Positions 24,201 through 40,304 of a stretch of DNA of 64,000 bases are shown here, in pieces. The notes under the pieces were generated by a model. It was not told the DNA's origin. It made no database searches and saw only the letters and a list, made by a program, of their open reading frames with translations. Source of the stretch: Candidatus Omnitrophota bacterium (GTDB lineage: Bacteria; Omnitrophota; Gorgyraeia; Zapsychrales; Zapsychraceae); assembly GCA_029261065.1 (NCBI GenBank), contig JAJDCB010000030.1:132876-196875 (forward strand), in the 5' to 3' direction. Both the position numbers and the translations under genes were made by a program. How positions within the stretch are numbered: position 1 is the first letter of the stretch; each line of letters begins with the position of its first letter.

Positions 24201-24287
24201 TCTTTTTAGTAGGGTTACTATTGGTGTTTTAATTATATAAAACAATCTATAGTAACCTTTTTTCGTGTCAGTTGAAGAATAGAAATA

Positions 24288-24377
24288 GATTCCCGCTTTC
24301 GCGGGAACGACAGTCATTTGTCATGCGCGTTTTCACAAGAGCGACAATCACTTGTCATTCCCGCGAAAGCGGGAATC
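24288..24377. repeat. REP/MITE-like element, the T-variant of the same family, with two inverted copies of gtcattcccgcgaaagcgggaatc
   Basis: Left arm 24288..24317 is the reverse complement of (atgactgtcgttcccgcgaaagcgggaatc). Right arm 24353..24377 is gtcattcccgcgaaagcgggaatc. The stem change c->t is compensated by g->a relative to locus 19063. Confidence 0.6.
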
Positions 24378-31013: not shown

Positions 31014-32120
31014 TTAAAAGTTGTATTCAATAACGGAAATAGCAATCCCCGTAAAAATAACCGGTATCATCCAGGCAGAAAGGATAGGAGGAAAGAGTCC
31101 TCCTTTACCAAACGCCAGACAAACCGCATTAGCCACGTAGTACAAAAATCCAATAAGCATAGCAATCCCAAGGGATGTAAAAGTCGTTCCTTTGCGAGAT
31201 CTGATCATCAAAGCAAAGGGGAGGCCTGCTAAAACGATTACAAAATTTCCTATAGGATAAGCAATCTTTTGATGAAAATCGACGCGTAAGTTGTTTAGAG
31301 CCTTGGTCGCTCCACTGTTCGCGAAGCGGTCAATATAGCTTTTGAGTTGTTTGATGTTCATGGATGTGACATTAAGTTGTTGTTTAAGAAAATCTGTGGG
31401 GGTTTCTTTAATGTCCATGAGCTTTTCATCATATATTCTAATTTTATCTGGCCTGTTGATATATTCAGCGTTAAATGTTGTTACTTGAACGGTTGAGAAT
31501 TTCCAAGCGATACCAGTCCAGATACCTTTCAGAGCTACAATTTTTTGTTTAATGTTTTGATCTGTGTCGTGTTCGATAATAGTGATGCCTTCTAATTCTG
31601 TTGTATTAGGCATATAAGAATCAATAAAATAAAGACGGTTTCTAAGGCCATAGAAGGTAAGATTTTTAATTTTATTTTTTTTCTTAGATATGCGATCGAC
31701 AAGGAGAATCATATTTTCATTTCTAATCTGTTTGGTGGTCTCAGTGGCTTGCGGGATGAGTTTTTCATTAAACCAAAAAGCAACGGCGCTAATAATTAAT
31801 CCAAAGCAAAGAGCCGGTTTAGCGATTTGCCAAAAATTTAAGCCACTGGCGCGCATGGCAATGATTTCATTACTGTTGTTCATACTGCTGTATGTCAGAA
31901 GTGTGGCAATAAGGCAGGCAATGGAGGAGGTTTGGGCGATGATGATGGGTAAAAATGATAAATAATATTTTAAGAGAATTTCTAAAGGGACTTTTCTGTC
32001 AATAAACTCATCCAATTGAGTTGTGATATCAATAAGAAGGTATAAAAAGACGAAGATAAACATCGTCAGAAAGAAGATCTTAAGGATAGAGGTATTTATA
32101 TATCGTTCTATGATACGCAT
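31014..32120 (-). CDS. lptG: LPS export ABC permease LptG (YjgP/YjgQ family)
   Basis: 'RIIERYINTSILKIFFLTMFIFVFLYLLID' and 6 TM helices with a periplasmic beta-jellyroll insert. The start was set at the internal Met (MRIIERY). Confidence 0.8.
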   Translation of the reverse strand: MRIIERYINTSILKIFFLTMFIFVFLYLLIDITTQLDEFIDRKVPLEILLKYYLSFLPIIIAQTSSIACLIATLLTYSSMNNSNEIIAMRASGLNFWQIAKPALCFGLIISAVAFWFNEKLIPQATETTKQIRNENMILLVDRISKKKNKIKNLTFYGLRNRLYFIDSYMPNTTELEGITIIEHDTDQNIKQKIVALKGIWTGIAWKFSTVQVTTFNAEYINRPDKIRIYDEKLMDIKETPTDFLKQQLNVTSMNIKQLKSYIDRFANSGATKALNNLRVDFHQKIAYPIGNFVIVLAGLPFALMIRSRKGTTFTSLGIAMLIGFLYYVANAVCLAFGKGGLFPPILSAWMIPVIFTGIAISVIEYNF

Positions 32121-33193
32121 TTTATATTTAGATAAAGGGCTATGGACCCAGATATTGTGTTTGGCACCCACATGATGATCGCGGGGGGTGCAATGTTTTT
32201 AATACTTAACGCTTCGCATCCAATAGATATTAAATAATAAAAAGCCGCACAAAGAATAGCAAAAACGACATTAGCAGATTTTTCGCGACGATGCGTAATA
32301 ACAGCTATGGGAAAGCCCAACATCATAAATATAAGTGTGGCAAAAGACCATGTAATCTTACGATGGAACTCTGTTTCCAGGCGTCCCGTATCAACAAGTA
32401 AACGTTCTAAATTATGAATTTCATCCTTTAATTCCGCTAAACTCATCCCCTTTGGTTTCTTCTCAACCTTTTTCTTTTTGTTAGAAAGGTCAAGAGTCAT
32501 AAAGAAGTTGTCAAAATTCAGTTTATAAAAACTGTTAGGATTTGTTAAATTAGGCTCATCCGATGTCCCGTTGATCAGTTTTAATTTAATCTGATCCTTA
32601 CCAGGAACGGGAGTAAACTCACCTTCCTTAGCGATGATGGTTCGTGTCGGTTTGCCTTCTTGAGGCTGATAGATGGTTACATTATACATCTTATTGCCAT
32701 CAATTTTGTGAATAAATAAAATTTGATTATCAAAAGAATGAATAAACATTCCCGCCTCAATAAGGGCTGTAGGATTTTGCACACCTAATGTTTTAAGAAG
32801 TTTATGTCGTTTATGATGCGTATCAGGAATGATGCGATCGTTGATGATGAGGGCGACTAAACTAAGGATGATGCCAATAATGAGAAGAGGGGTAAGAAGT
32901 TTTGTAAGATGAATACCGTTGGCGCGTAGGGCCAGGATTTCGTTATCAGCCGATAATCGACTAAACCCAAGAATGACCGCCGCCAAACAAGAAAATGGCA
33001 AAATGTAACCAAGCCACAAAGGAATCGAATAAAGAAAAACTTCGCCAATAACAGAGAGATGGACACCCTTATTTATGACGAGATTAGTCAGTTGAATAAG
33101 ATTTCCTAACATAAAGATGCCAACAAGAATCGACATCGCCAGGAAAAAAGGAACGATGCATTCGATGAGGATGTAGTTTCTTATAATTTTCAT
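32108..33193 (-). CDS. lptF: LPS export ABC permease LptF (YjgP/YjgQ family)
   Basis: 'MKIIRNYILIECIVPFFLAMSILVGIFMLGN' matches the LptF/G N-terminus. It is tandem with a second copy and is the upstream gene of the pair. The start was set at MKIIRNY. Confidence 0.8.
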   Translation of the reverse strand: MKIIRNYILIECIVPFFLAMSILVGIFMLGNLIQLTNLVINKGVHLSVIGEVFLYSIPLWLGYILPFSCLAAVILGFSRLSADNEILALRANGIHLTKLLTPLLIIGIILSLVALIINDRIIPDTHHKRHKLLKTLGVQNPTALIEAGMFIHSFDNQILFIHKIDGNKMYNVTIYQPQEGKPTRTIIAKEGEFTPVPGKDQIKLKLINGTSDEPNLTNPNSFYKLNFDNFFMTLDLSNKKKKVEKKPKGMSLAELKDEIHNLERLLVDTGRLETEFHRKITWSFATLIFMMLGFPIAVITHRREKSANVVFAILCAAFYYLISIGCEALSIKNIAPPAIIMWVPNTISGSIALYLNIKCVS

Positions 33194-33206
33194 GGTATAA
33201 AAGTTT

Positions 33207-33262
33207 GTCATTCCCGCGAACACGGGAATCTATATGGATACCTGTTGTCACGGGTATGACAG
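33207..33262. repeat. REP/MITE-like element (gtcattcccgcgaacacgggaatc plus a degenerate inverted copy) between comFC and lptF
   Basis: Left arm 33207..33230. Right arm 33241..33262 (cctgttgtcacgggtatgacag) reverse-complements to ctgtcatacccgtgacaacagg. It belongs to the same family as loci 10.8 kb, 19.1 kb and 24.3 kb. Confidence 0.5.
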
Positions 33263-33272
33263 TTTTAAATCA

Positions 33273-33998
33273 TTAACGAATCGCTAGCGTCAAAACTCCA
33301 ACAGTGTTAGCCCCTGCTTCTTTCAGTGTTTGTGCTGCTTGCGAAGAGGTTGCCCCTGTTGTTAGTAAATCGTCTATAAGAAGAATAGATTTGTTATTTA
33401 CATTTGAAGGAGTACTCATTTTAAAAGCCGATGTGAGGTTTGTCCAGCGATCTTTTCGACTTAATGATGTTTGATTCTTTGTGTGTTCTACGCGTTTTAA
33501 AATATTTGGCTTTAGGGGAATCTTGTAATACTTAGATAATCCTTGGGCCAGACAAAAAGCCTGATTATACCCCCTTTCCCGTTGTCGCGTTGGATGGAGG
33601 GGGATGGGAATAAGCAAATCAAATTGTTGGATATCTAGACTGTATTTTTTGACATGGGAAATCATTAGATTCGCTAATGTGTGGCGTAGCATAGTCTTTT
33701 GACCATATTTAAAGGAATGAATCATTTTTTTTAAATGAGCTGTATAAAGACAAGCTCCCCAAGCAAAATCAAAATGGGGCTTGTAGGTGCGGCAATTATG
33801 GCAAAGGGCAGCCACATAGGGCCCCTGTAGGTGTCTGTTACACTTTTGACAGAAAGGCGGGAAGTTCATCCTCATGCATCTCAAACAATCCGGACACACT
33901 CCTTCCTGGGAATTTTGGGTAGGTATTTGATTATGGCAAATAAAACAATTACGGGGGAAGACCAGATCACATAATCCGGTAATGATGTGTTGAATCAT
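33273..33998 (-). CDS. comFC: ComF family protein (ComFC-like; double zinc ribbon plus phosphoribosyltransferase domain)
   Basis: N-terminal CxxC...CxxC ribbons ('CFICHNQ...CPDCL...CQKCNRHL...CHNC') and a C-terminal PRTase motif 'ILLIDDLLTTGATSSQAAQTLKEAGA'. Confidence 0.8.
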   Translation of the reverse strand: MIQHIITGLCDLVFPRNCFICHNQIPTQNSQEGVCPDCLRCMRMNFPPFCQKCNRHLQGPYVAALCHNCRTYKPHFDFAWGACLYTAHLKKMIHSFKYGQKTMLRHTLANLMISHVKKYSLDIQQFDLLIPIPLHPTRQRERGYNQAFCLAQGLSKYYKIPLKPNILKRVEHTKNQTSLSRKDRWTNLTSAFKMSTPSNVNNKSILLIDDLLTTGATSSQAAQTLKEAGANTVGVLTLAIR

Positions 33999-34005
33999 TG
34001 GGGTT
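33878..34005. repeat. Direct repeat copy 1 (128 bp) covering comFC codons 1-40 plus 7 nt of leader
   Basis: 124 of 128 nt are identical to 34727..34854. Confidence 0.85.
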
Positions 34006-34570
34006 TATGAAATCCGATTTTGTTTTTAGATTTTATTGGTGGTTCCAGTAGTTTTTTAATGGCTTCAAAGACAATTTTAAATTGATGATCATATTTATTC
34101 TCCATCATTTCTATTTTTTGTCTCAACTGTTTGTGTGTAGACATCAATTCACGTAATTTGGTAAATGTCCGCATAATTTGGATGTTGACCTGAATGGCGC
34201 GTTTGCTTTTAAGGACGCTGGAAAGCATTGCAATACCTTGCTCGGTAAAGGCATATGGGACGTATTTTAAATTGTGTCCTCTTTTCAAGGTCACAATTTG
34301 TGACCTTGAAGAGGCAGGATTAGCCTTCTCGGAAGTTAGAATTTGTGATCTCCAAATTTTGATTTCTTCTTTTGTCATTTGGAACATAAAATCTTTTGGA
34401 AAACGTTCTAGGTTTCGTTTAACGGCTTGATTAAGGGCTTTTGTTTCGACACCATAAAGCAGGGCTAAGTCTTTGTCTAGCATTACTTTATGATTTCTCA
34501 GGAACAGTATTTTATTTTCAATAATTTCAGATGATGAGATGTTTGTTGATGCTGATGATTTTTTTGTCAT
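33995..34570 (-). CDS. ORF6N-domain protein (KilA-N-related, phage/mobile-element associated DNA-binding family)
   Basis: 'LDKDLALLYGVETKALNQAVKRNLERFPKDFMFQMTKEE...SQIVTLKRGHNLKYVPYAFTEQGIAMLSSVLKSKRAIQVNIQIMRTF' matches the conserved ORF6N core. Its stop overlaps the comFC start (ATGA). Confidence 0.7.
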   Translation of the reverse strand: MTKKSSASTNISSSEIIENKILFLRNHKVMLDKDLALLYGVETKALNQAVKRNLERFPKDFMFQMTKEEIKIWRSQILTSEKANPASSRSQIVTLKRGHNLKYVPYAFTEQGIAMLSSVLKSKRAIQVNIQIMRTFTKLRELMSTHKQLRQKIEMMENKYDHQFKIVFEAIKKLLEPPIKSKNKIGFHKPQ

Positions 34571-34623
34571 TATTTCCCCTCATGTCACATGGATTATCTT
34601 TAATTTATACTGGGGGAAATTTT

Positions 34624-34893
34624 TTATGAAGGGGGAAATACGAATAGAAATAACATAGCATACAAAATATTAAGGGTCAATCTGCAATTATCGTCTGATA
34701 GATAATTGTTAAGGTGGAAAATTTTTTGTTGAATCAATCTCAAACAATCCGGACATACTCTTTCCTGGGACTTTTGGGTAGGTATTTGATTATGGCAAAT
34801 AAAACAATTACGGGGGAAGACCAGATCACTTAATCCGGTAATGATGTGTTGAATCATTGGGGTTATCGTAGCCTTGACTTTAGGGATAGTCAA
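34624..34893 (-). pseudogene. Duplicated 5' fragment of comFC (first about 40 codons) that diverges to an early stop
   Basis: It encodes 'MIQHIITGLSDLVFPRNCFICHNQIPTQKSQERVCPDCL', near-identical to the ComFC N-terminus, followed by unrelated sequence. Confidence 0.6.
34727..34854. repeat. Direct repeat copy 2 (128 bp) of the comFC 5' end
   Basis: See copy 1. The two copies flank a ~720-bp segment carrying the ORF6N gene. Confidence 0.85.
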
Positions 34894-34985
34894 ATAAAGG
34901 GTTTTTTTGAAAAGGGTATTAAATAATTTTTTTTAAGTTAAACTAAATGAGTTGAAGGTTATGTCATGTATGAATAGGAGAAAAA

Positions 34986-36185
34986 TTGAAAATTAAAATA
35001 ATTATTACTTTAGGATTTTTTGTGTTTTTATTGGGCGGTATTTTAGAGGCTGATCCTGCTTTAATAAAACAGTTGTCTGAGCTTTATAAGGCCAAATTAA
35101 CGAGTCCGGCATACCAAGATTGGAAGCAGGTTAACCATCGTACGATGGAAGGCCAGTCCTTTGAAGAAGAGAGGCAAATAAAAAAAGTTATTTCTCAAAT
35201 GACTAAGCAGGTTAATGTTCCCGAGGGTAAGCCTGTCTCAGTTATTCCGATCAAAACGAGTAATTTTCCTAATGTTGATGGTAAGATTCAAGAAGGGGAG
35301 TGGGAGGGGGCATTAGAAATAGATATTGGGTATGGTGATGTCTATACGCCAATTTATTTGCTCTCTGATTCAAAAAGGCTTTATGTGGCAGCCGATGTTA
35401 TTCAGGGAAAGACTAGAAAGACTTCTTTTTTCTTTAAGTATCATATTGATTTAACTCCGTTCTTACGTCGAGAACAAGTCAATCTTTATCCTGGCTCAAC
35501 GCAGCTTCAAAGTTCCCGCTTGGTCTATCAAAAAGAGTTTGGTATCTCTTTTTATTGGAATTATGATTCACATATCTATCGAAATGCACGGGGTGCAGGA
35601 AGTAGGGCCAGTGGGCATCAGCAATATGAACTTGTTATTGATTTAAGCGAAGCGAATATTCATAGGGATGTTCCCTTCTCTAGTTTTATTCAGATCGGAA
35701 CGGATTCCAAAAAAATGGTTTTAAGCAATGGGCGAGAATATCAAAAACCAATGTTTTTAGGACTCTTGGGTTCTAATATTCGACCGCATTGGTTTGTGAT
35801 CAGTGATTCGTATATCTCTGACCCCAATAATGTTGTTGCAAAAGAAGTTATTGAGCATCCGCATATTTCTAAGATTAATCCTGGTAGGAAAGTCATTGAT
35901 TATGAGAAATATGTTGTGAAAGGCGCATACACCATTTTTTATTTTTACACAGATTGGTGTAAACCTTGCCATGTGTTAGGGCCGAGATTGGAGAATCTAG
36001 CCAAAAGCCGTGAAGATGTCTACGTGCGCAAAATTGATTGTGATGTCATCGATTCTCCTGAAAACATGGCCAACGATATCGCTGGATATCCAACTGTCAC
36101 TATATTTGGAAAAAATGGACAGATTCTTCATGATAAAGTCATTTATTTAGAACCTATTGAAAAAATATTGGACGAGATGTTTTAG
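34986..36185 (+). CDS. Secreted protein with a C-terminal thioredoxin domain (WCKPC active site) and an uncharacterised ~270-aa N-terminal domain. It appears to use a TTG start.
   Basis: Signal peptide 'KIKIIITLGFFVFLLGGILEA', C-terminus 'YFYTDWCKPCHVLGPRLENLAKS...AGYPTVTIFGKNGQ', and RBS aggag 5 nt before the TTG. Confidence 0.55.
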   Translation: MKIKIIITLGFFVFLLGGILEADPALIKQLSELYKAKLTSPAYQDWKQVNHRTMEGQSFEEERQIKKVISQMTKQVNVPEGKPVSVIPIKTSNFPNVDGKIQEGEWEGALEIDIGYGDVYTPIYLLSDSKRLYVAADVIQGKTRKTSFFFKYHIDLTPFLRREQVNLYPGSTQLQSSRLVYQKEFGISFYWNYDSHIYRNARGAGSRASGHQQYELVIDLSEANIHRDVPFSSFIQIGTDSKKMVLSNGREYQKPMFLGLLGSNIRPHWFVISDSYISDPNNVVAKEVIEHPHISKINPGRKVIDYEKYVVKGAYTIFYFYTDWCKPCHVLGPRLENLAKSREDVYVRKIDCDVIDSPENMANDIAGYPTVTIFGKNGQILHDKVIYLEPIEKILDEMF

Positions 36186-36200
36186 TGTTTTCAATGACAA

Positions 36201-39200
36201 TTATTTTCTTCTCTTCATTAAAAAAACACTTCCGTAAGTATCAATTACCCACACACCGTCTTTGGCATTCGTCATAAATACAATACCGTTACCATATTTA
36301 ATGGAAGGGTCTTTAACCTCCTGTGTAAATGTTTTTTTGATTTGATCGTGGATATTGATATTGGCCATGGTCCATTGAAATGTCAGAAGACGATTCCCAT
36401 CTGTTGCCATAGGAATTAAACGCGTTTGAGGGTGTCCCATGATGGGTTCACCGGTTAAATTATTTGGAGGTCGAGGAATTTCTATTCCCGTGTATCCGGA
36501 AGGTTTATAACCAATCAGCCAAGTTTTAACGTTTGTCTTTGGATCATAACGTGATATGCCTGACTTAGGCATGTAGTAAGTAATCCTACCATCAGAAAAA
36601 ATTAATTTCTCAACATCTAGGTTTTCTTTAACACGTTGGGTTAATACTTTGCTTTTAAAATTGTATTGCCAAAGGCCATTTCGAGAAACATCTCCTGCGA
36701 TGCTTAACCATAGATTATCGTTTTGCTCATCAATGGCAATGGATTTAATTTGATAACTTCTTCCTGCATCTAAGGCGTTGTCAGCTGACAGATTGGTTGT
36801 TGAAGCAAGAATTTCATAATCCCAATTTTGAGTGTTAAGAGCAATCAAACCAGATTTCCCTTTCAGTCCAAACTTTTGATCTTTACTCAGCGGACCGACA
36901 CCGACATAAAGTAAGTCTTTATGACTGGCTAAGGATAAAATGTTATCAAAGGGGAAGGTGGTCGTTGTGTTTAATATTTTTGCTTGGTTTGCAGAAGTTG
37001 TAGGCTCTGTGACAAGGTAGTATCCCTGATAATTTGAACCAGATTTAAGGGCATGTTGAGAGGGAATAATTGTTCCTGTTTGTTTCTTAACGGCAATGAT
37101 ACCGACATTTGTGCCTACAAATATAAATTGATCATTGGTAGCCATGGCTGTAACTTCTAGCGGTTTTTTGGGTGAGCTTTGTACTTTTATAAACCCAACT
37201 TTACGAATTTTATCTGGATAATTTAATGGATACTCATAAAAGTTAACAAGATTTAACCCTTGACCTTGCACATGAATATCTACAGTGTAGAAGGTATTGT
37301 CATGAATAAAGAATTTTTCAAAGAAGAAGTTTGATCGTGTTTCAATTCTACCTAAACTGCTTTGCGCATCACCTAGTTGGTAGCCAACGCGAGTTGGCAT
37401 CTTTTCGAGTGTATAGTCTGAAACCGATTCATTTGATTTGCTTTTATTAGGAGATCCTGTTGTGTACACCTCATCAACAAGGGTATAGGCGCTACTACGT
37501 GCGCTAATGGCTCCATCTGTATTGTGTGATTGAGATGATTTTGGAGAGTTATAAGCTACAAATACGGCGGTACCTTGATTATTATGTCCTCTGACAACGC
37601 TATTTTTAAAAGAGTCGCTGCCATCATCTGGAAACATAGTACTGTAATCAACATCTTCGCCTAAGCGAGGTGGTTCTAACTCGGGACTCATTCGTAAATA
37701 GTAAGGGCTTTTGTCCAATTCAAGGTAAGCTTGATATTTGGGTTCGAAATTTTTTTTGACTCCAAGTTTAACTAATTTTAGTTCCAGTCGTCCTCGAAGA
37801 AGTTTTGCATCTGAAGAACTGTTTTTATAATTGTTTTGTTCAAGCACAGCGATCATTTTATTTAATGTTTGCACAAGCTGCGCCTTTTTTTTCGCTATTT
37901 CAAGAGCATTAAGATAAGGCCAAACATGCTGCCGCCAGGCAACTAAATTATTAGCATCATTGGATCGAATCATCCCCGCAAACACGGATTGCAAAGTTTG
38001 GATTAGCTCAGGGCTGTGATTCAAAGCGGCATGGGTAGTGGCTGTCCTTATTAAATTAGGTAAAATCGAGAGATCTTCTAGTTGCCAAATCGGATGGGAG
38101 TAAGGGAAACTATTTGTTAGGATTTGTAATTGAGCGATTGAAGATGCATTTTTTTCGTATGGTATTAAATGATTGAAACTGACAAGACGTACAAAATCGT
38201 TTGTGCTTTTAGTGTAAGCTTGAAATAATTTTTTTAATTTTGGATAAAGTCTATGATGGTTATCAATTGCTGTGCAATACAATAAACCTTTAAAGCGTGC
38301 GGGATGATAATCATTCTCCGTCTCAATAAATGCTGTGATGATATTTTTTAAAAATGGAACAATTTTACTCGAATCTTTAGGCTTGCTATCCATAATAAGA
38401 TCCTTCTTGTCGCGCCATGATTGCCAATAGGCTTTTGAATTAGTAAGATTTTTATAATGGTTTTTATAAAAGTCTTCTTGAAATTTAAGAAGCTGTTTAC
38501 GCATATTCATGAACTGATCATTGAGTTTTTTAACATGATATTCATCGTCATGAATTTGAACCGGTAAAGGCCATTCGCCACGTTCATGATAATAACGGCT
38601 TGTGTTGGGATACTTTATGGGATTCGGAATTTCAAGGCTAACTTCTAATCCTGTATCGACACGTCTGGCGTGTTCGCGTGCTAATTCGTAGTAAAGCGTG
38701 TAGCTGCGTAAAAAGGCGGAGACGGTACGTTTTTTCTTTTCTAAATTGTCATAAGAGGTATGAGGTCTACTGGAAGCTTTTTTTAAAATCGTTGAGGTGT
38801 CTCCCCAAAAACTTCTATTAACGTTAATTTTATTTTTTGACGGAAGAGTATTATCCGTTTTAGATTTGATCTGCACAACGGTGACGGCTTTCGTATTGCC
38901 TGGATGAAACGAGCTTGAGAGACCTGCTGTCATTCCACCAAATCCATCTGCTAACGTCCAACCCATCTCATACCAACTACGGGCTAACCAATAACGTGCT
39001 TTTTGTGTAGGGTTTAAACTAAAGGCAACCTCGGCATGTTGAATGGCTAGATCATGTTCGGCGCTTGATAAGAACAGAGGAACACGTTTGAGAAAGAGTT
39101 TGGCTTCCTCTACAGGGGAAATTTGTTTTACATCGGTTGTTTTAACATTAATAGCATTAAGGATTTTTTTATTTAAGATATTACGCGCTTTTTGAATATT

Positions 39201-40304
39201 TTGTGTTGGAATGTTAAATTTAATTTTTTTGGTTGAAAGATCTTTCATGGAATGAATATTAAGCGAGACGGCTAATTCCGTTTGTCCTTGAGTATATTTC
39301 AAACTTCCATCAAGTAATAGTAGAGATGACTTTAGCTGTTGATCCATCTGTGTTAATCGTAATTCTTCGTTGAGGTAACGAAGATGCTCTCGGTCTAAAA
39401 CTATGACTTGCGAAGATTTTGACAAATCTGCTGTCAGAAACATTTTTAAGGCTTCAATGTGGCCATCTAAGGCGACGGTCGGTTCTTCACTTTTAAAATC
39501 CAAAAAAGCAATATGATGTCTTTGGGGAGCTGGTGTTTTAAGAGTTTGATTCGTTTGGACAATAGCCTCGACAATCCAATCAAGATTTTTTTTCACATGG
39601 GCTTGTTCTAGAAGAACAGTATTTAATGTTATGGCTGTTGTACTTTCTACAAAACGTAAACGTATCATGGGTGGCTCAGATGTTGGCACTTTTTCTACAA
39701 TAAGCAAAACATCCGCCGATAATAAATTCCCTAACTTTGCCGATTGTTTTGGATCGATAAAGCCTCCAGCACTTAGAGATAGCTCATCAATGGCGTTCCA
39801 GATCTGTGTTCTTTCTAAAAGGACAAGATTATCGAGTTGAGAAAGTTGAACTTCTAGTAGATCGATGACGGGCTCATAGACATTGCGCTGATTTTGACCG
39901 GGGATGATGGCTATTTGAATGGAGGGAAGATTTGAAGGCGGGATGTAAGTACTTTCTGTTAACCCATCTTTGAATGGAGCTGCAGATTTAAATTCGCTAA
40001 TGTGTTGTATCTGTTGAGGTGTGTCATTGTAATTTGGTACTGTTCCAATAGTGCTTTTGGATAATGATGCAGGGTCGATCCCTCTTTTGCGCAATTCATT
40101 ATGGGATTTCTTTAGTTGCCTTTTATAATCCTTGGATTTCATCCATTGGGAATAATCGTTATAAAAGTCAGTCGAACCTTGAGATTTTGCCATCTTAGTA
40201 TTCCAATATATCCTCTCATAGTGATAAGGACTAGAAGGCCGCAGGAATATAACAAACATACCTGTGAGAATGAGGGAATAAATGAGTAATCTTTTTGCGT
40301 TCAT
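36201..40304 (-). CDS. Giant (1367 aa) secreted multidomain protein: N-terminal TM/signal, two CsgG/LpoB-like periplasmic modules, a long TPR/helical region and a C-terminal beta-propeller. It is a paralogue of 54800..57892.
   Basis: Hydrophobic N-terminus 'LLIYSLILTGMFVIFL'. The modules 'IQIAIIPGQN...LVLLERTQIWNAIDELSL' and 'HIAFLDFKSEE...VIVLDREHLRYLNEEL' fit a CsgG-like pattern. The C-terminal region 'ILSLASHKDLLYVGVGP...GKSGLIALN...NLWLSIAGDVSRNGLWQYNFKSK' is colinear with the C-terminus of the 1030-aa protein. Confidence 0.7.
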   Translation of the reverse strand: MNAKRLLIYSLILTGMFVIFLRPSSPYHYERIYWNTKMAKSQGSTDFYNDYSQWMKSKDYKRQLKKSHNELRKRGIDPASLSKSTIGTVPNYNDTPQQIQHISEFKSAAPFKDGLTESTYIPPSNLPSIQIAIIPGQNQRNVYEPVIDLLEVQLSQLDNLVLLERTQIWNAIDELSLSAGGFIDPKQSAKLGNLLSADVLLIVEKVPTSEPPMIRLRFVESTTAITLNTVLLEQAHVKKNLDWIVEAIVQTNQTLKTPAPQRHHIAFLDFKSEEPTVALDGHIEALKMFLTADLSKSSQVIVLDREHLRYLNEELRLTQMDQQLKSSLLLLDGSLKYTQGQTELAVSLNIHSMKDLSTKKIKFNIPTQNIQKARNILNKKILNAINVKTTDVKQISPVEEAKLFLKRVPLFLSSAEHDLAIQHAEVAFSLNPTQKARYWLARSWYEMGWTLADGFGGMTAGLSSSFHPGNTKAVTVVQIKSKTDNTLPSKNKINVNRSFWGDTSTILKKASSRPHTSYDNLEKKKRTVSAFLRSYTLYYELAREHARRVDTGLEVSLEIPNPIKYPNTSRYYHERGEWPLPVQIHDDEYHVKKLNDQFMNMRKQLLKFQEDFYKNHYKNLTNSKAYWQSWRDKKDLIMDSKPKDSSKIVPFLKNIITAFIETENDYHPARFKGLLYCTAIDNHHRLYPKLKKLFQAYTKSTNDFVRLVSFNHLIPYEKNASSIAQLQILTNSFPYSHPIWQLEDLSILPNLIRTATTHAALNHSPELIQTLQSVFAGMIRSNDANNLVAWRQHVWPYLNALEIAKKKAQLVQTLNKMIAVLEQNNYKNSSSDAKLLRGRLELKLVKLGVKKNFEPKYQAYLELDKSPYYLRMSPELEPPRLGEDVDYSTMFPDDGSDSFKNSVVRGHNNQGTAVFVAYNSPKSSQSHNTDGAISARSSAYTLVDEVYTTGSPNKSKSNESVSDYTLEKMPTRVGYQLGDAQSSLGRIETRSNFFFEKFFIHDNTFYTVDIHVQGQGLNLVNFYEYPLNYPDKIRKVGFIKVQSSPKKPLEVTAMATNDQFIFVGTNVGIIAVKKQTGTIIPSQHALKSGSNYQGYYLVTEPTTSANQAKILNTTTTFPFDNILSLASHKDLLYVGVGPLSKDQKFGLKGKSGLIALNTQNWDYEILASTTNLSADNALDAGRSYQIKSIAIDEQNDNLWLSIAGDVSRNGLWQYNFKSKVLTQRVKENLDVEKLIFSDGRITYYMPKSGISRYDPKTNVKTWLIGYKPSGYTGIEIPRPPNNLTGEPIMGHPQTRLIPMATDGNRLLTFQWTMANINIHDQIKKTFTQEVKDPSIKYGNGIVFMTNAKDGVWVIDTYGSVFLMKRRK

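What the first reader, a model, noticed from the sequence alone, without database searches (positions are those of the whole stretch)
33273..34893. ORF6N-domain gene cassette inserted exactly at the comFC start codon and flanked by a 128-bp duplication of the comFC 5' end
The segments 33878..34005 and 34727..34854 are 124/128 identical direct repeats. Each covers comFC codons 1-40 plus 7 nt of leader. Between them lies a ~720-bp segment encoding an ORF6N/KilA-N-related DNA-binding protein, a family typical of phages and integrative elements. Its stop codon overlaps the intact comFC start (ATGA), so the cassette is now translationally coupled to comFC-lptF-lptG. The distal repeat copy heads a decayed comFC fragment (34624..34893). 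This looks like an integrative module that targets the 5' end of a competence gene and regenerates it, the mirror image of islands that regenerate tRNA 3' ends. No integrase is present, which suggests a remnant or a trans-mobilised cassette.
Basis: seen in the sequence. Interest (0 to 1): 0.65.

Follow-up and report, generated by a model that had tools for sequence, protein, structure and literature searches.

The report
ORF6N gene cassette inserted into comFC
A small stand-alone DNA-binding gene (a candidate anti-phage gene) sits inside the front end of a DNA-uptake gene of an uncultivated Omnitrophota-like bacterium with 128 bases of the target copied on both sides, so the host gene stays intact; the same insertion signature recurs around this gene family in unrelated metagenomes.

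Summary
It brackets a 731-bp insert holding one ORF6N (PF10543) gene that also matches the PADLOC candidate-defence family PDC-S05. The repeat is 7 nt of leader plus comFC codons 1-40. The downstream copy continues into intact comFC-lptF-lptG. The upstream copy keeps the ancestral promoter layout and now heads a 77-aa chimeric remnant. Homology of the ORF6N gene to relatives stops at ...IGFH, so its last three codons and its TGA (ATGA overlap) come from the comFC leader. Relatives at 54-58% identity have comFC-lptF-lptG without ORF6N. No integrase or transposase was found in the ORFs of at least 150 aa scanned within about 10 kb. The signature is not unique: 8 of 70 testable ORF6N loci from other metagenomes carry 34-102-bp duplications of local host sequence around a lone ORF6N gene, against 0 of 97 shifted controls. 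The best reading is a duplicative insertion of a non-autonomous single-gene cassette by an unknown mechanism. It does not look like a remnant island that carries its own comFC 5' end. The family also holds a conserved, covarying palindrome inside its coding sequence and is often next to comM.

The parts
34865..34893 (-). Promoter-like site TTGACT-17-TACGAT. It ends exactly where the distal repeat begins, 7 nt before the ATG, and is inferred to be the ancestral, near-leaderless comFC promoter.
   Evidence: Consensus scan, 9/12 match, which is weak on its own. The 58%-identical relative L070 has the same layout, TTGACA-17-TACTAT-6 nt-GTG.
34737..34864 (-). Distal (upstream) copy of the 128-nt repeat: 7-nt leader plus comFC codons 1-40 plus 1 nt.
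34624..34857 (-). Chimeric remnant ORF of 77 aa plus stop: comFC residues 1-40 with three substitutions, then 37 residues read from the cassette's 5' region.
   Evidence: (partial DZR_2 match)
34006..34736 (-). Inserted cassette, 731 bp, 33.2% G+C against 37.4% in the flanks.
34727..34736 (-). First 10 nt of the insert, TGATTCAACA, identical to comFC positions -1 to +9. This is a junction microhomology or templated filler.
   Evidence: family D3; about 1% of random 20-mers match as well. It is not a general feature of the other loci.
34652..34680 (-). The cassette's own promoter-like site, TTGACC-17-TATGTT, with TG before the -10 hexamer.
33995..34570 (-). ORF6N / PDC-S05 gene, 191 aa. The last 3 codons (KPQ) and the TGA are supplied by the comFC leader.
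34281..34313 (-). 33-nt palindrome inside the ORF6N coding sequence, core TCACAAATTGTGA, encoding SSRSQIVTLKR. A degenerate second copy lies at 34325-34359.
   Evidence: (I4)
33878..34005 (-). Proximal copy of the 128-nt repeat, which is the true 5' end of intact comFC.
33273..33998 (-). Intact comFC (ComF family: double zinc ribbon plus phosphoribosyltransferase-like domain).
31014..33223 (-). lptF (32108-33223) and lptG (31014-32171), downstream in the same operon.

Best explanation
A 731-bp, non-autonomous single-gene cassette was inserted into the first 40 codons of comFC. It carries its own promoter-like site, a ribosome-binding site and an ORF6N/PDC-S05 DNA-binding gene. The event duplicated 128 bp of target: 7 nt of leader plus codons 1-40. 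The upstream copy stayed joined to the ancestral near-leaderless promoter and is now a dead 77-aa chimera. The downstream copy stayed joined to the rest of comFC, so comFC-lptF-lptG survives. These genes are now read from transcripts that start at the old promoter and/or the cassette promoter and run through ORF6N. comFC translation is probably re-initiated at the ATGA overlap, since there is no Shine-Dalgarno sequence. This geometry is a recurrent signature of the gene family: a lone ORF6N gene bracketed by a long duplication of local host DNA whose length varies from locus to locus. The cassette is therefore best seen as a mobile unit that inserts duplicatively. It is moved in trans or by a host break-repair or replication process, because it encodes no recombinase. 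What is shown: the anatomy, the absence of ORF6N at this site in relatives, the recurrence in other loci, and the lack of a nearby recombinase. What is inferred: that the duplication arose at insertion (staggered breaks filled in, or an equivalent process), the read-through and translational coupling, and that the encoded protein is a dimeric palindrome-binding regulator or candidate defence factor.
For: Anatomy and sharp repeat boundaries.
Homology to the closest cassette (L068, 76% aa identity) starts at the RBS and stops exactly at GGATTTCAT, 1 nt before the repeat. Family-wide conservation ends at ...IGF, followed by unrelated tails.
Relatives at 54-58% comFC identity have comFC as the first gene of comFC-lptF-lptG with no ORF6N.
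The distal copy keeps the same -35/-10/start layout as relative L070.
No terminator-like site occurs in 33200-35100.
The four repeat differences are 3 nonsynonymous to 1 synonymous, as expected if one copy is drifting.
Recurrence: of 70 testable ORF6N loci, 21 have direct repeats spanning the gene against 2 with inverted repeats. Eight have clean host-sequence duplications of 34-102 bp (L081, L099, L105, L110, L118, L140, L151, L152), against 0 of 97 shifted controls; Fisher p=7.5e-4. In L118, L140 and L152 the duplicated piece is the 3' end of the upstream gene.
Insert G+C is below flank G+C in all 9 cases.
Mobility: the L134 and L136 cassettes are 94% identical over about 640 nt with unrelated flanks. 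L112, L113 and L124 are 98.5-99.6% identical in the gene, with shared flanks of only 250-400 nt.
All ORFs of at least 150 aa from 24.4 to 44.7 kb match housekeeping families or nothing.
Precedent for long variable duplications: IS1549/IS1634, 8-514 bp (PMC2266710).
Against: No empty site in a close relative could be found. The next-best comFC in 5.8 billion proteins is 58% identical, so the insertion is inferred from family-level synteny only.
The cassettes share no terminal repeats or end motifs. Their 5' and 3' extents vary: 21-260 nt upstream of the start codon and -11 to 176 nt past the stop. That is unlike any defined transposon.
No mobilising enzyme is identified.
In L118 and L140 the differences between the two copies are mostly synonymous or conservative (and my reading of the frames). 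That fits two selected gene ends, or gene conversion, better than simple decay.
Four of the eight other cases are only about 80% identical and lie in non-coding DNA.
Many ORF6N loci have no flanking duplication at all.
The reads of the source assembly were not available.
Confidence: 0.6

Rival explanations
1. The locus is a remnant, or a cis-mobilisable piece, of a site-specific integrative element whose attP carried its own copy of the comFC 5' end. Integration displaced the host 5' end (distal fragment) and regenerated the gene. The integrase and the rest of the element were later lost, or act in trans.
For: The geometry matches that of known gene-end-regenerating elements. ORF6N genes lie directly beside tyrosine integrases at the edge of Bacteroides/Parabacteroides elements. 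In Omnitrophota, comM carries a large-serine-recombinase element (L068). It also carries an island with ORF6N plus a diverged 147-nt comM duplicate (L180). These show that elements which duplicate or disrupt a competence gene exist in this phylum.
Against: No integrase within about 10 kb. Only 166 nt separate the distal repeat from the ORF6N start codon, so a deletion would have had to end almost exactly at attL. The same compact architecture occurs at eight other loci, each with different, locus-specific repeat sequences and lengths. A site-specific system would not give that. The 3:1 nonsynonymous-to-synonymous pattern does not look like two functional alleles, though n=4.
Confidence: 0.12
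2. Campbell-type integration. A DNA fragment from a related strain held the cassette plus the adjoining first 128 nt of comFC. It was taken up, circularised by an illegitimate join (GAGAT|TGATTCAACA) and recombined homologously with the resident comFC 5' end. That duplicates the homology without any transposition chemistry.
For: It gives exactly the observed order. It explains locus-specific repeats of arbitrary length and variable cassette ends. It explains the odd 10-nt junction identity as a microhomology join. It could explain the mostly synonymous differences between copies in L118 and L140. The host encodes competence genes.
Against: It needs a prior simple insertion next to comFC in a donor, so the original insertion is left unexplained. 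A 128-bp homology with 3% divergence is a poor recombination substrate. Nothing explains why this would recur specifically around ORF6N (0 of 97 controls). The differences in the window are mostly nonsynonymous.
Confidence: 0.15
3. ORF6N is an old resident partner or regulator of competence genes in Omnitrophota. The distal comFC fragment arose by a local rearrangement (dispersed duplication or template switch), not by arrival of ORF6N.
For: Close relatives of this ORF6N lie 15-105 nt upstream of comM in divergent lineages (L068, L178/L179, L182, L154, L090). Others lie just downstream of comM (L076, L178, L180). The overlap with comFC suggests co-expression. A relative's comFC promoter is preceded by seven GTCACA hexamers, which is the half-site of the ORF6N palindrome.
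Against: comFC relatives lack ORF6N. The distal copy, not the proximal one, has the ancestral promoter-to-start layout. The cassette has lower G+C than its flanks. A 128-nt dispersed duplication landing 731 nt upstream has no simple mechanism.
Confidence: 0.08
4. Assembly artefact. A duplicated or chimeric join was made by the metagenome assembler from strain variants.
For: The source is a metagenome-assembled contig and its reads could not be examined. In principle, two strains with simple insertions 128 nt apart could be joined through the shared cassette.
Against: The copies differ at 4 positions, and the longest identical run is 58 nt. All four junction sequences are unique. The same architecture appears in eight other contigs from independent samples and assemblers. 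The frame, overlap and promoter details are biologically coherent.
Confidence: 0.05

Closest known systems
IS1549 / IS1634 (IS1634 family insertion sequences)
   Same: They are bacterial elements documented to leave long direct duplications of the target whose length varies from copy to copy (8-514 bp), with no mechanistic model (PMC2266710). The ORF6N cassettes show 34-128 bp.
   Different: Those are autonomous IS elements with a DDE transposase and terminal inverted repeats. The cassette encodes only a DNA-binding protein, has no detectable inverted ends and has variable extents.
Integrative elements that regenerate the gene they enter (phage 21 and e14 in icd; SXT in the 5' end of prfC). 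Cited from my own knowledge, not checked here.
   Same: Insertion inside a protein-coding gene, with a direct repeat of the gene end on both sides, one intact gene and one orphan fragment. SXT also supplies a new 5' end and a promoter.
   Different: Those carry an integrase and a fixed attP with their own copy of the gene end, and always use the same site. Here there is no integrase, and every locus has a different repeat.
Cis-mobilisable elements (CIMEs) of streptococcal ICEs. Cited from my own knowledge.
   Same: Small integrase-less segments bounded by att-type direct repeats that can be moved by a related element's enzymes.
   Different: CIMEs carry the att sites of a specific ICE at a specific locus. 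The ORF6N cassettes are bounded by local host sequence.
PDC-S05, a PADLOC single-gene candidate defence system
   Same: The protein matches three PDC-S05 profiles (E=5.7e-58, 2e-55, 8e-40). One PDC-S05 representative reduced plating of T7 and T5 about 1000-fold in E. coli (bioRxiv 10.1101/2024.09.26.614923).
   Different: The tested representative was described as having a RhuM domain, so it may be a different sub-type. No defence activity is shown for this protein, and this locus is not in a defence island.
Phage ORF6N / KilA-N-type anti-repressors
   Same: Pfam ORF6N. PHROG anti-repressor families match. The predicted N-terminal DNA-binding-like domain is followed by long helices.
   Different: The viral homologues are only 41-53% identical. 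This subfamily is chromosomal, stand-alone and 60-76% identical across phyla.

Membership tests
ORF6N domain family (PF10543) | Match to the Pfam model above the gathering score | tested here: met
   114.1 bits against a cut-off of 27.8, covering the full model 1-86
PDC-S05 (PADLOC candidate defence) | Match to the PDC-S05 profile HMMs | tested here: met
   E=5.7e-58, 2e-55 and 8e-40
PDC-S05 (PADLOC candidate defence) | Confers phage resistance | not testable with these tools
   There is only a report for another representative.
Site-specific integrative element that regenerates its target gene | Integrase/recombinase gene within or beside the element | tested here: not met
   The insert has one ORF6N gene. 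All ORFs of at least 150 aa from 24.4 to 44.7 kb match housekeeping families or nothing.
Site-specific integrative element that regenerates its target gene | Direct repeats (attL/attR) containing the end of the target gene | tested here: met
   128-nt repeat holding comFC codons 1-40
Site-specific integrative element that regenerates its target gene | The same att sequence or target is used by related elements | tested here: not met
   Eight other cassettes have unrelated, locus-specific repeats.
Insertion sequence / transposon (including the IS1634 type) | Encodes a transposase | tested here: not met
   Only ORF6N is present. The model shows a DNA-binding-like domain plus helices.
Insertion sequence / transposon (including the IS1634 type) | Terminal inverted repeats or conserved ends | tested here: not met
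   No shared end motifs, and the ends vary in position.
Insertion sequence / transposon (including the IS1634 type) | Direct duplication of target sequence at the insertion site | tested here: met
   128 bp here and 34-102 bp at eight other loci.
Integron gene cassette | attC recombination site at the 3' end, within an array next to intI | tested here: not met
   The 3' end abuts the comFC leader directly. There is no intI and no array. The only strong palindrome is inside the ORF.
ComF family (ComFC/GntX) | N-terminal zinc ribbon plus C-terminal phosphoribosyltransferase-like domain | tested here: met
   DZR_2 and Pribosyltran in Pfam. TIGR00201 and NF008616 hits are below their curated cut-offs. 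More than 1900 homologues, many named ComF.

The most novel reading that the evidence does not exclude
The stand-alone ORF6N/PDC-S05 genes would be a previously undescribed kind of non-autonomous single-gene mobile cassette. They insert with long duplications of the target whose length varies from locus to locus (34-128 bp), so that genes hit near their ends are rebuilt. They carry, inside their own coding sequence, a conserved covarying 25-35-bp palindrome (core TCACAAWTTGTGA). The same palindrome also occurs in their promoters and free-standing in phage genomes. It would serve as the protein's recognition site and possibly as the cis element for mobility. In Omnitrophota these cassettes would preferentially sit at competence genes (comM, comFC), coupling a defence-type DNA-binding protein to DNA uptake.
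Probability: 0.25. Interest if true: 0.8.

Novelty: new variant of a known kind. Interest (0 to 1): 0.6.

Why it matters
Single-gene candidate defence genes such as PDC-S05 are among the most abundant items in environmental defence catalogues, yet how they spread without a recombinase of their own is not known. A reproducible insertion signature would give a testable handle on that question. The signature here is a long target duplication of varying length that preserves the gene that was hit. The only bacterial precedent for such duplications (IS1549/IS1634) is itself unexplained. The palindrome embedded in the coding sequence is a second handle: it predicts a specific DNA site for a protein family whose mechanism is unknown. 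For this genome, the insertion rewires expression of comFC and of the normally essential lptF/lptG genes through a foreign gene. If the link to competence genes is real, it would connect DNA uptake with a defence-type regulator in a poorly known phylum.

Tried and rejected
1. Empty-site search. Exact-protein look-ups of the window's ORF6N, its comFC and P0001 found nothing. The GTDB species scan gave 45% as the best comFC match. The 5.8-billion-protein search gave 58% as the next best. No close relative exists in these collections.
2. Second copies in the window. There is no other ORF6N gene and no third repeat copy.
3. Junction microhomology as a general rule. Only the window shows it (10 nt); the other eight loci do not.
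4. Shared cassette ends or terminal inverted repeats. None were found.
5. Polarising the four repeat differences with homologues. The positions are variable, so this was uninformative.
6. Rfam. Only a sub-threshold chance hit.
7. PDB fold search with the AlphaFold model. No hit below E=1, only weak MerR/Dachshund-like resemblance.
8. Literature. ORF6N is mentioned only in passing, and no relevant paper contains the palindrome sequence.
9. dnaN/gyrB as a second recurrent neighbour. All four loci turned out to be one lineage, more than 93% identical.
10. Repeats flanking ORF6N in L182, L106, L137 and L153. These are genome-wide REP-like elements or copies of the ORF6N palindrome, not target duplications. 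L144, L106, L122, L092, L068 and L178 are tandem ORF6N arrays. All of these were excluded from the count of eight.
11. Plasmid homologues. They are at most 50% identical and sit next to integrases in Bacteroidales elements, a different context.
Full report
OBSERVATION
The direct repeat exists. The repeat finder returns one 128-nt pair at 33878-34005 and 34737-34864, 97% identical. The alignment shows identity starting abruptly at AACCCCAATG and ending abruptly after GTTTGAGAT, with four mismatches. A 34-nt probe from the repeat finds only these two sites in the window, with none expected by chance. A self-BLAST finds no third copy.

All genes here are on the minus strand. comFC is 33273-33998 (double zinc ribbon plus phosphoribosyltransferase-like domain). 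lptF and lptG follow it. The 731 bp between the repeats (34006-34736) hold one ORF, 33995-34570, which matches Pfam ORF6N at E=3.8e-33. Its TGA overlaps the comFC ATG. The distal copy starts an open frame at ATG 34857. That frame reads comFC residues 1-40 (C10S, N29K, G33R, one silent change), then 37 unrelated residues, and stops at 34624.

WHAT THE INSERT IS
The protein belongs to a very large and unusually conserved family. The search hit its 8000-candidate limit, with many members 60-76% identical. They carry source names from Omnitrophica, Patescibacteria, Planctomycetes, Nitrospirae and others. It matches three profiles of the PADLOC candidate single-gene defence system PDC-S05 (E down to 5.7e-58) and PHROG anti-repressor families. 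A preprint reports that one PDC-S05 representative lowered plating of T7 and T5 about 1000-fold. That representative was described as carrying a RhuM domain.

An AlphaFold model (mean pLDDT 74) shows an N-terminal alpha/beta domain and long C-terminal helices (residues 123-175). This layout suggests a dimeric DNA-binding protein. No solved structure matched significantly.

DNA homology to the nearest cassette (L068, Omnitrophica, 76% aa identity) begins at the ribosome-binding site and ends exactly at GGATTTCAT. That is one base before the 128-nt repeat. Across the family, conservation ends at ...IGF and is followed by unrelated tails of 0-40 residues. In the window the gene therefore has no stop codon of its own. 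Its last three codons and the TGA come from the comFC leader.

The cassette has a promoter-like site of its own (TTGACC-17-TATGTT, 34680-34652). No terminator-like site occurs anywhere in 33200-35100. Its G+C is 33.2%, against 37.4% in the flanks.

IS IT AN INSERTION?
No close relative of this genome exists in the collections. The next-best comFC is 58% identical. The test therefore rests on family-level synteny. In relatives at 54-58% identity (L070-L075), comFC is the first gene of a conserved comFC-lptF-lptG operon with no ORF6N.

In L070 the start codon is preceded by TTGACA-17-TACTAT-6 nt. The window's distal copy has the same layout, TTGACT-17-TACGAT-7 nt-ATG, with the -10 hexamer ending exactly where the repeat begins. 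The distal copy is thus contiguous with ancestral upstream DNA, and the proximal copy is contiguous with the rest of the gene. That is the geometry of an insertion with target duplication.

All ORFs of at least 150 aa within about 10 kb on either side match housekeeping families (metG, thiL, tsaE, tsaB, alr and others) or no family. None matches an integrase or transposase family.

THE SIGNATURE RECURS
I fetched 80 ORF6N loci from metagenomes and compared the DNA upstream and downstream of each gene. Of 70 testable loci, 21 have direct repeats spanning the gene and 2 have inverted repeats. Fourteen have repeats close to both gene ends. The same test at positions shifted by 2.4-3.2 kb gave 0 of 97.

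I then removed tandem ORF6N arrays, REP-like elements and copies of the family palindrome. Eight loci remain with clean duplications of local host sequence: L081 (66 bp), L099 (68), L105 (92), L110 (102), L118 (65, 95% identical), L140 (49, 92%), L151 (65, 89%) and L152 (34, 88%). Each has sharp boundaries and no third copy in its locus (Fisher p=7.5e-4). In L118, L140 and L152 the duplicated piece is the 3' end of the upstream gene.

Inserts are 558-793 bp, and insert G+C is always below flank G+C. The inserts have no shared end motif, and the amount of 5' and 3' non-coding sequence varies.

Recent mobility is indicated by two groups. The L134 and L136 cassettes are 94% identical over about 640 nt in unrelated flanks. 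L112, L113 and L124 are 98.5-99.6% identical in the gene but share only 250-400 nt of flank.

The only bacterial precedent I could document for long, variable-length target duplications is IS1549/IS1634 (8-514 bp, mechanism unknown; PMC2266710). Those are autonomous insertion sequences.

MECHANISM, AND WHAT REMAINS INFERRED
The best-supported account is a duplicative insertion of a non-autonomous single-gene cassette. Possible routes are staggered breaks that are filled in, a replication-based equivalent, or Campbell-type recombination of a circularised cassette-plus-flank fragment. Sequence alone cannot separate these.

The window has a 10-nt identity (TGATTCAACA) between the first bases of the insert and the comFC start, about 1% likely by my null. 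It looks like a microhomology or templated join, and it is not seen at the other loci. The window's 3:1 nonsynonymous-to-synonymous differences fit drift of one copy. In L118 and L140 the differences are mostly synonymous or conservative, which fits gene conversion or a donor-borne copy.

It needs a deletion ending almost at attL at nine loci, and a different att sequence at each.

An assembly artefact is unlikely. The copies are 3% diverged, the longest identical run is 58 nt, all four junctions are unique, and the pattern recurs in independent assemblies. Reads were not available, however.

Functionally, comFC, lptF and lptG must now be transcribed through the cassette. With no Shine-Dalgarno sequence before the ATG, translation presumably restarts at the ATGA overlap. 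This is inference.

SIDE FINDINGS THAT BEAR ON FUNCTION
(1) A conserved palindrome lies inside the coding sequence.
- In the window it is at 34281-34313. It folds as single-stranded DNA at -16.2 kcal/mol, z=-5.3.
- In 59 copies the core TCACAAnTTGTGA is nearly invariant, and the outer seven base pairs covary: 135 double-sided changes against 59±6 in shuffles, and 82% of cells paired against 27-45% in slid controls. G-U pairs are very few.
- Codon choice at the motif is extreme even in genes of 57-64% G+C: Ser TCA 51/58, Val GTG 51/51, Gln CAA 51/58.
- The encoded residues fall in the low-confidence loop of the model.
- Extra copies sit just outside the gene in several loci, including promoter regions.
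- The exact 19-mer AGGTCACAAWTTGTGACCT occurs in 43 viral contigs. My rough estimate is that fewer than one is expected by chance. Fourteen copies lie inside ORF6N homologues and 29 lie in other, mostly non-coding, contexts.
- The simplest reading is a DNA site recognised by the dimeric protein. This is inference.

(2) The closest relatives of this ORF6N sit next to comM.
- Upstream of comM by 15-105 nt: L068, L178/L179, L182, L154 and L090. Downstream of comM: L076, L178 and L180. Degenerate tandem copies often accompany them.
- Together with comFC here, this is a notable link to competence genes. It could instead reflect an insertion hot spot. In the same phylum comM also carries a serine-recombinase element (L068) and an island with a diverged comM duplicate (L180).

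(3) In L070, seven GTCACA hexamers (the palindrome half-site) cluster just upstream of the comFC promoter.

VERDICT
The locus is a new variant of known kinds: target-duplicating insertion, and integrase-less cassettes. It is of moderate-to-good interest because the signature generalises to an abundant, poorly understood gene family.

Noticed in passing
window 34281-34313 (and 34325-34359); alignment A4 of 59 copies from L068, L076-L154: The ORF6N/PDC-S05 genes carry a 25-35-bp palindrome inside the coding sequence, with core TCACAAWTTGTGA and covarying outer stem. Codon choice there is extreme, even in high-GC genes. The encoded residues form a low-confidence loop in the model.
   Followed up: yes
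L183-L225 (viral contigs): The exact 19-nt palindrome AGGTCACAAWTTGTGACCT occurs in 43 IMG/VR contigs. Fourteen copies lie inside ORF6N homologues and 29 lie in non-ORF6N, mostly non-coding, contexts, some just upstream of genes. These could be free-standing binding sites in phage genomes.
   Followed up: partly
L068 5001-6337; L178 3414-6689; L179; L182 557-2709; L154; L090; L076; L180 1-1343: Close relatives of the window's ORF6N are repeatedly adjacent to comM. They lie upstream of it by 15-105 nt and/or directly downstream. Degenerate tandem ORF6N copies often lie beside them.
   Followed up: partly
L070 4967-5023: Seven GTCACA hexamers (five direct, two inverted) cluster within 57 nt just upstream of the comFC promoter of a relative that lacks ORF6N at that locus. 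The hexamer is the half-site of the ORF6N palindrome.
   Followed up: partly
L180 1-147 and 3387-3533; L068 6200-8203: comM is a target of other elements in Omnitrophota. One is an island (ORF6N, a hypothetical gene, a DUF4143 ATPase) followed by an 86%-identical 147-nt comM fragment. Another is a 667-aa large serine recombinase element that cuts comM near its Walker A motif.
   Followed up: partly
L144 3945-5487; L106 3791-4848; L122; L092 3-46: Head-to-tail tandem arrays of ORF6N genes. In L144 the stop of one copy overlaps the start of the next (ATGA), as ORF6N and comFC do in the window.
   Followed up: partly
window 33205-33260 and 24285-24377; L182 25-112, 449-532, 1082-1171: REP-like palindromic intergenic elements (GTCATTCCCGCGAAGGCGGGAATC type) recur in the window, for example between comFC and lptF. 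In L182 they separate small accessory genes (GIY-YIG, ORF6N) upstream of comM.
   Followed up: no
window 31014-33998; L070, L073-L075: comFC is co-oriented and tightly linked with lptF-lptG in the window and in the two relative lineages examined (54-58% identical). This is an unusual pairing of a competence gene with LPS-transport genes.
   Followed up: no
L166 1-6525 (P0074, 16 contigs): Another ORF6N copy lies in a toxin-antitoxin and CRISPR type I-B island (DUF4276, DUF433/DUF5615, MazE/PIN, Cas6b, Cas8b), next to an ORF6N fragment.
   Followed up: no
window 36201-40304 (minus strand): A 1367-aa ORF next to the locus has no convincing Pfam domain; only a faint CsgG-like stretch is seen.
   Followed up: no
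L112 / L113 / L124, about 90 nt upstream of ORF6N: The promoter-region palindrome TGGTCACAAATTGTGACCGG (L113) appears as TGGTCATAAATTATGACCGG in L112 and L124. This is a compensatory double change that keeps the symmetry. The shared unit also includes a small zinc-ribbon ORF downstream of ORF6N.
   Followed up: no
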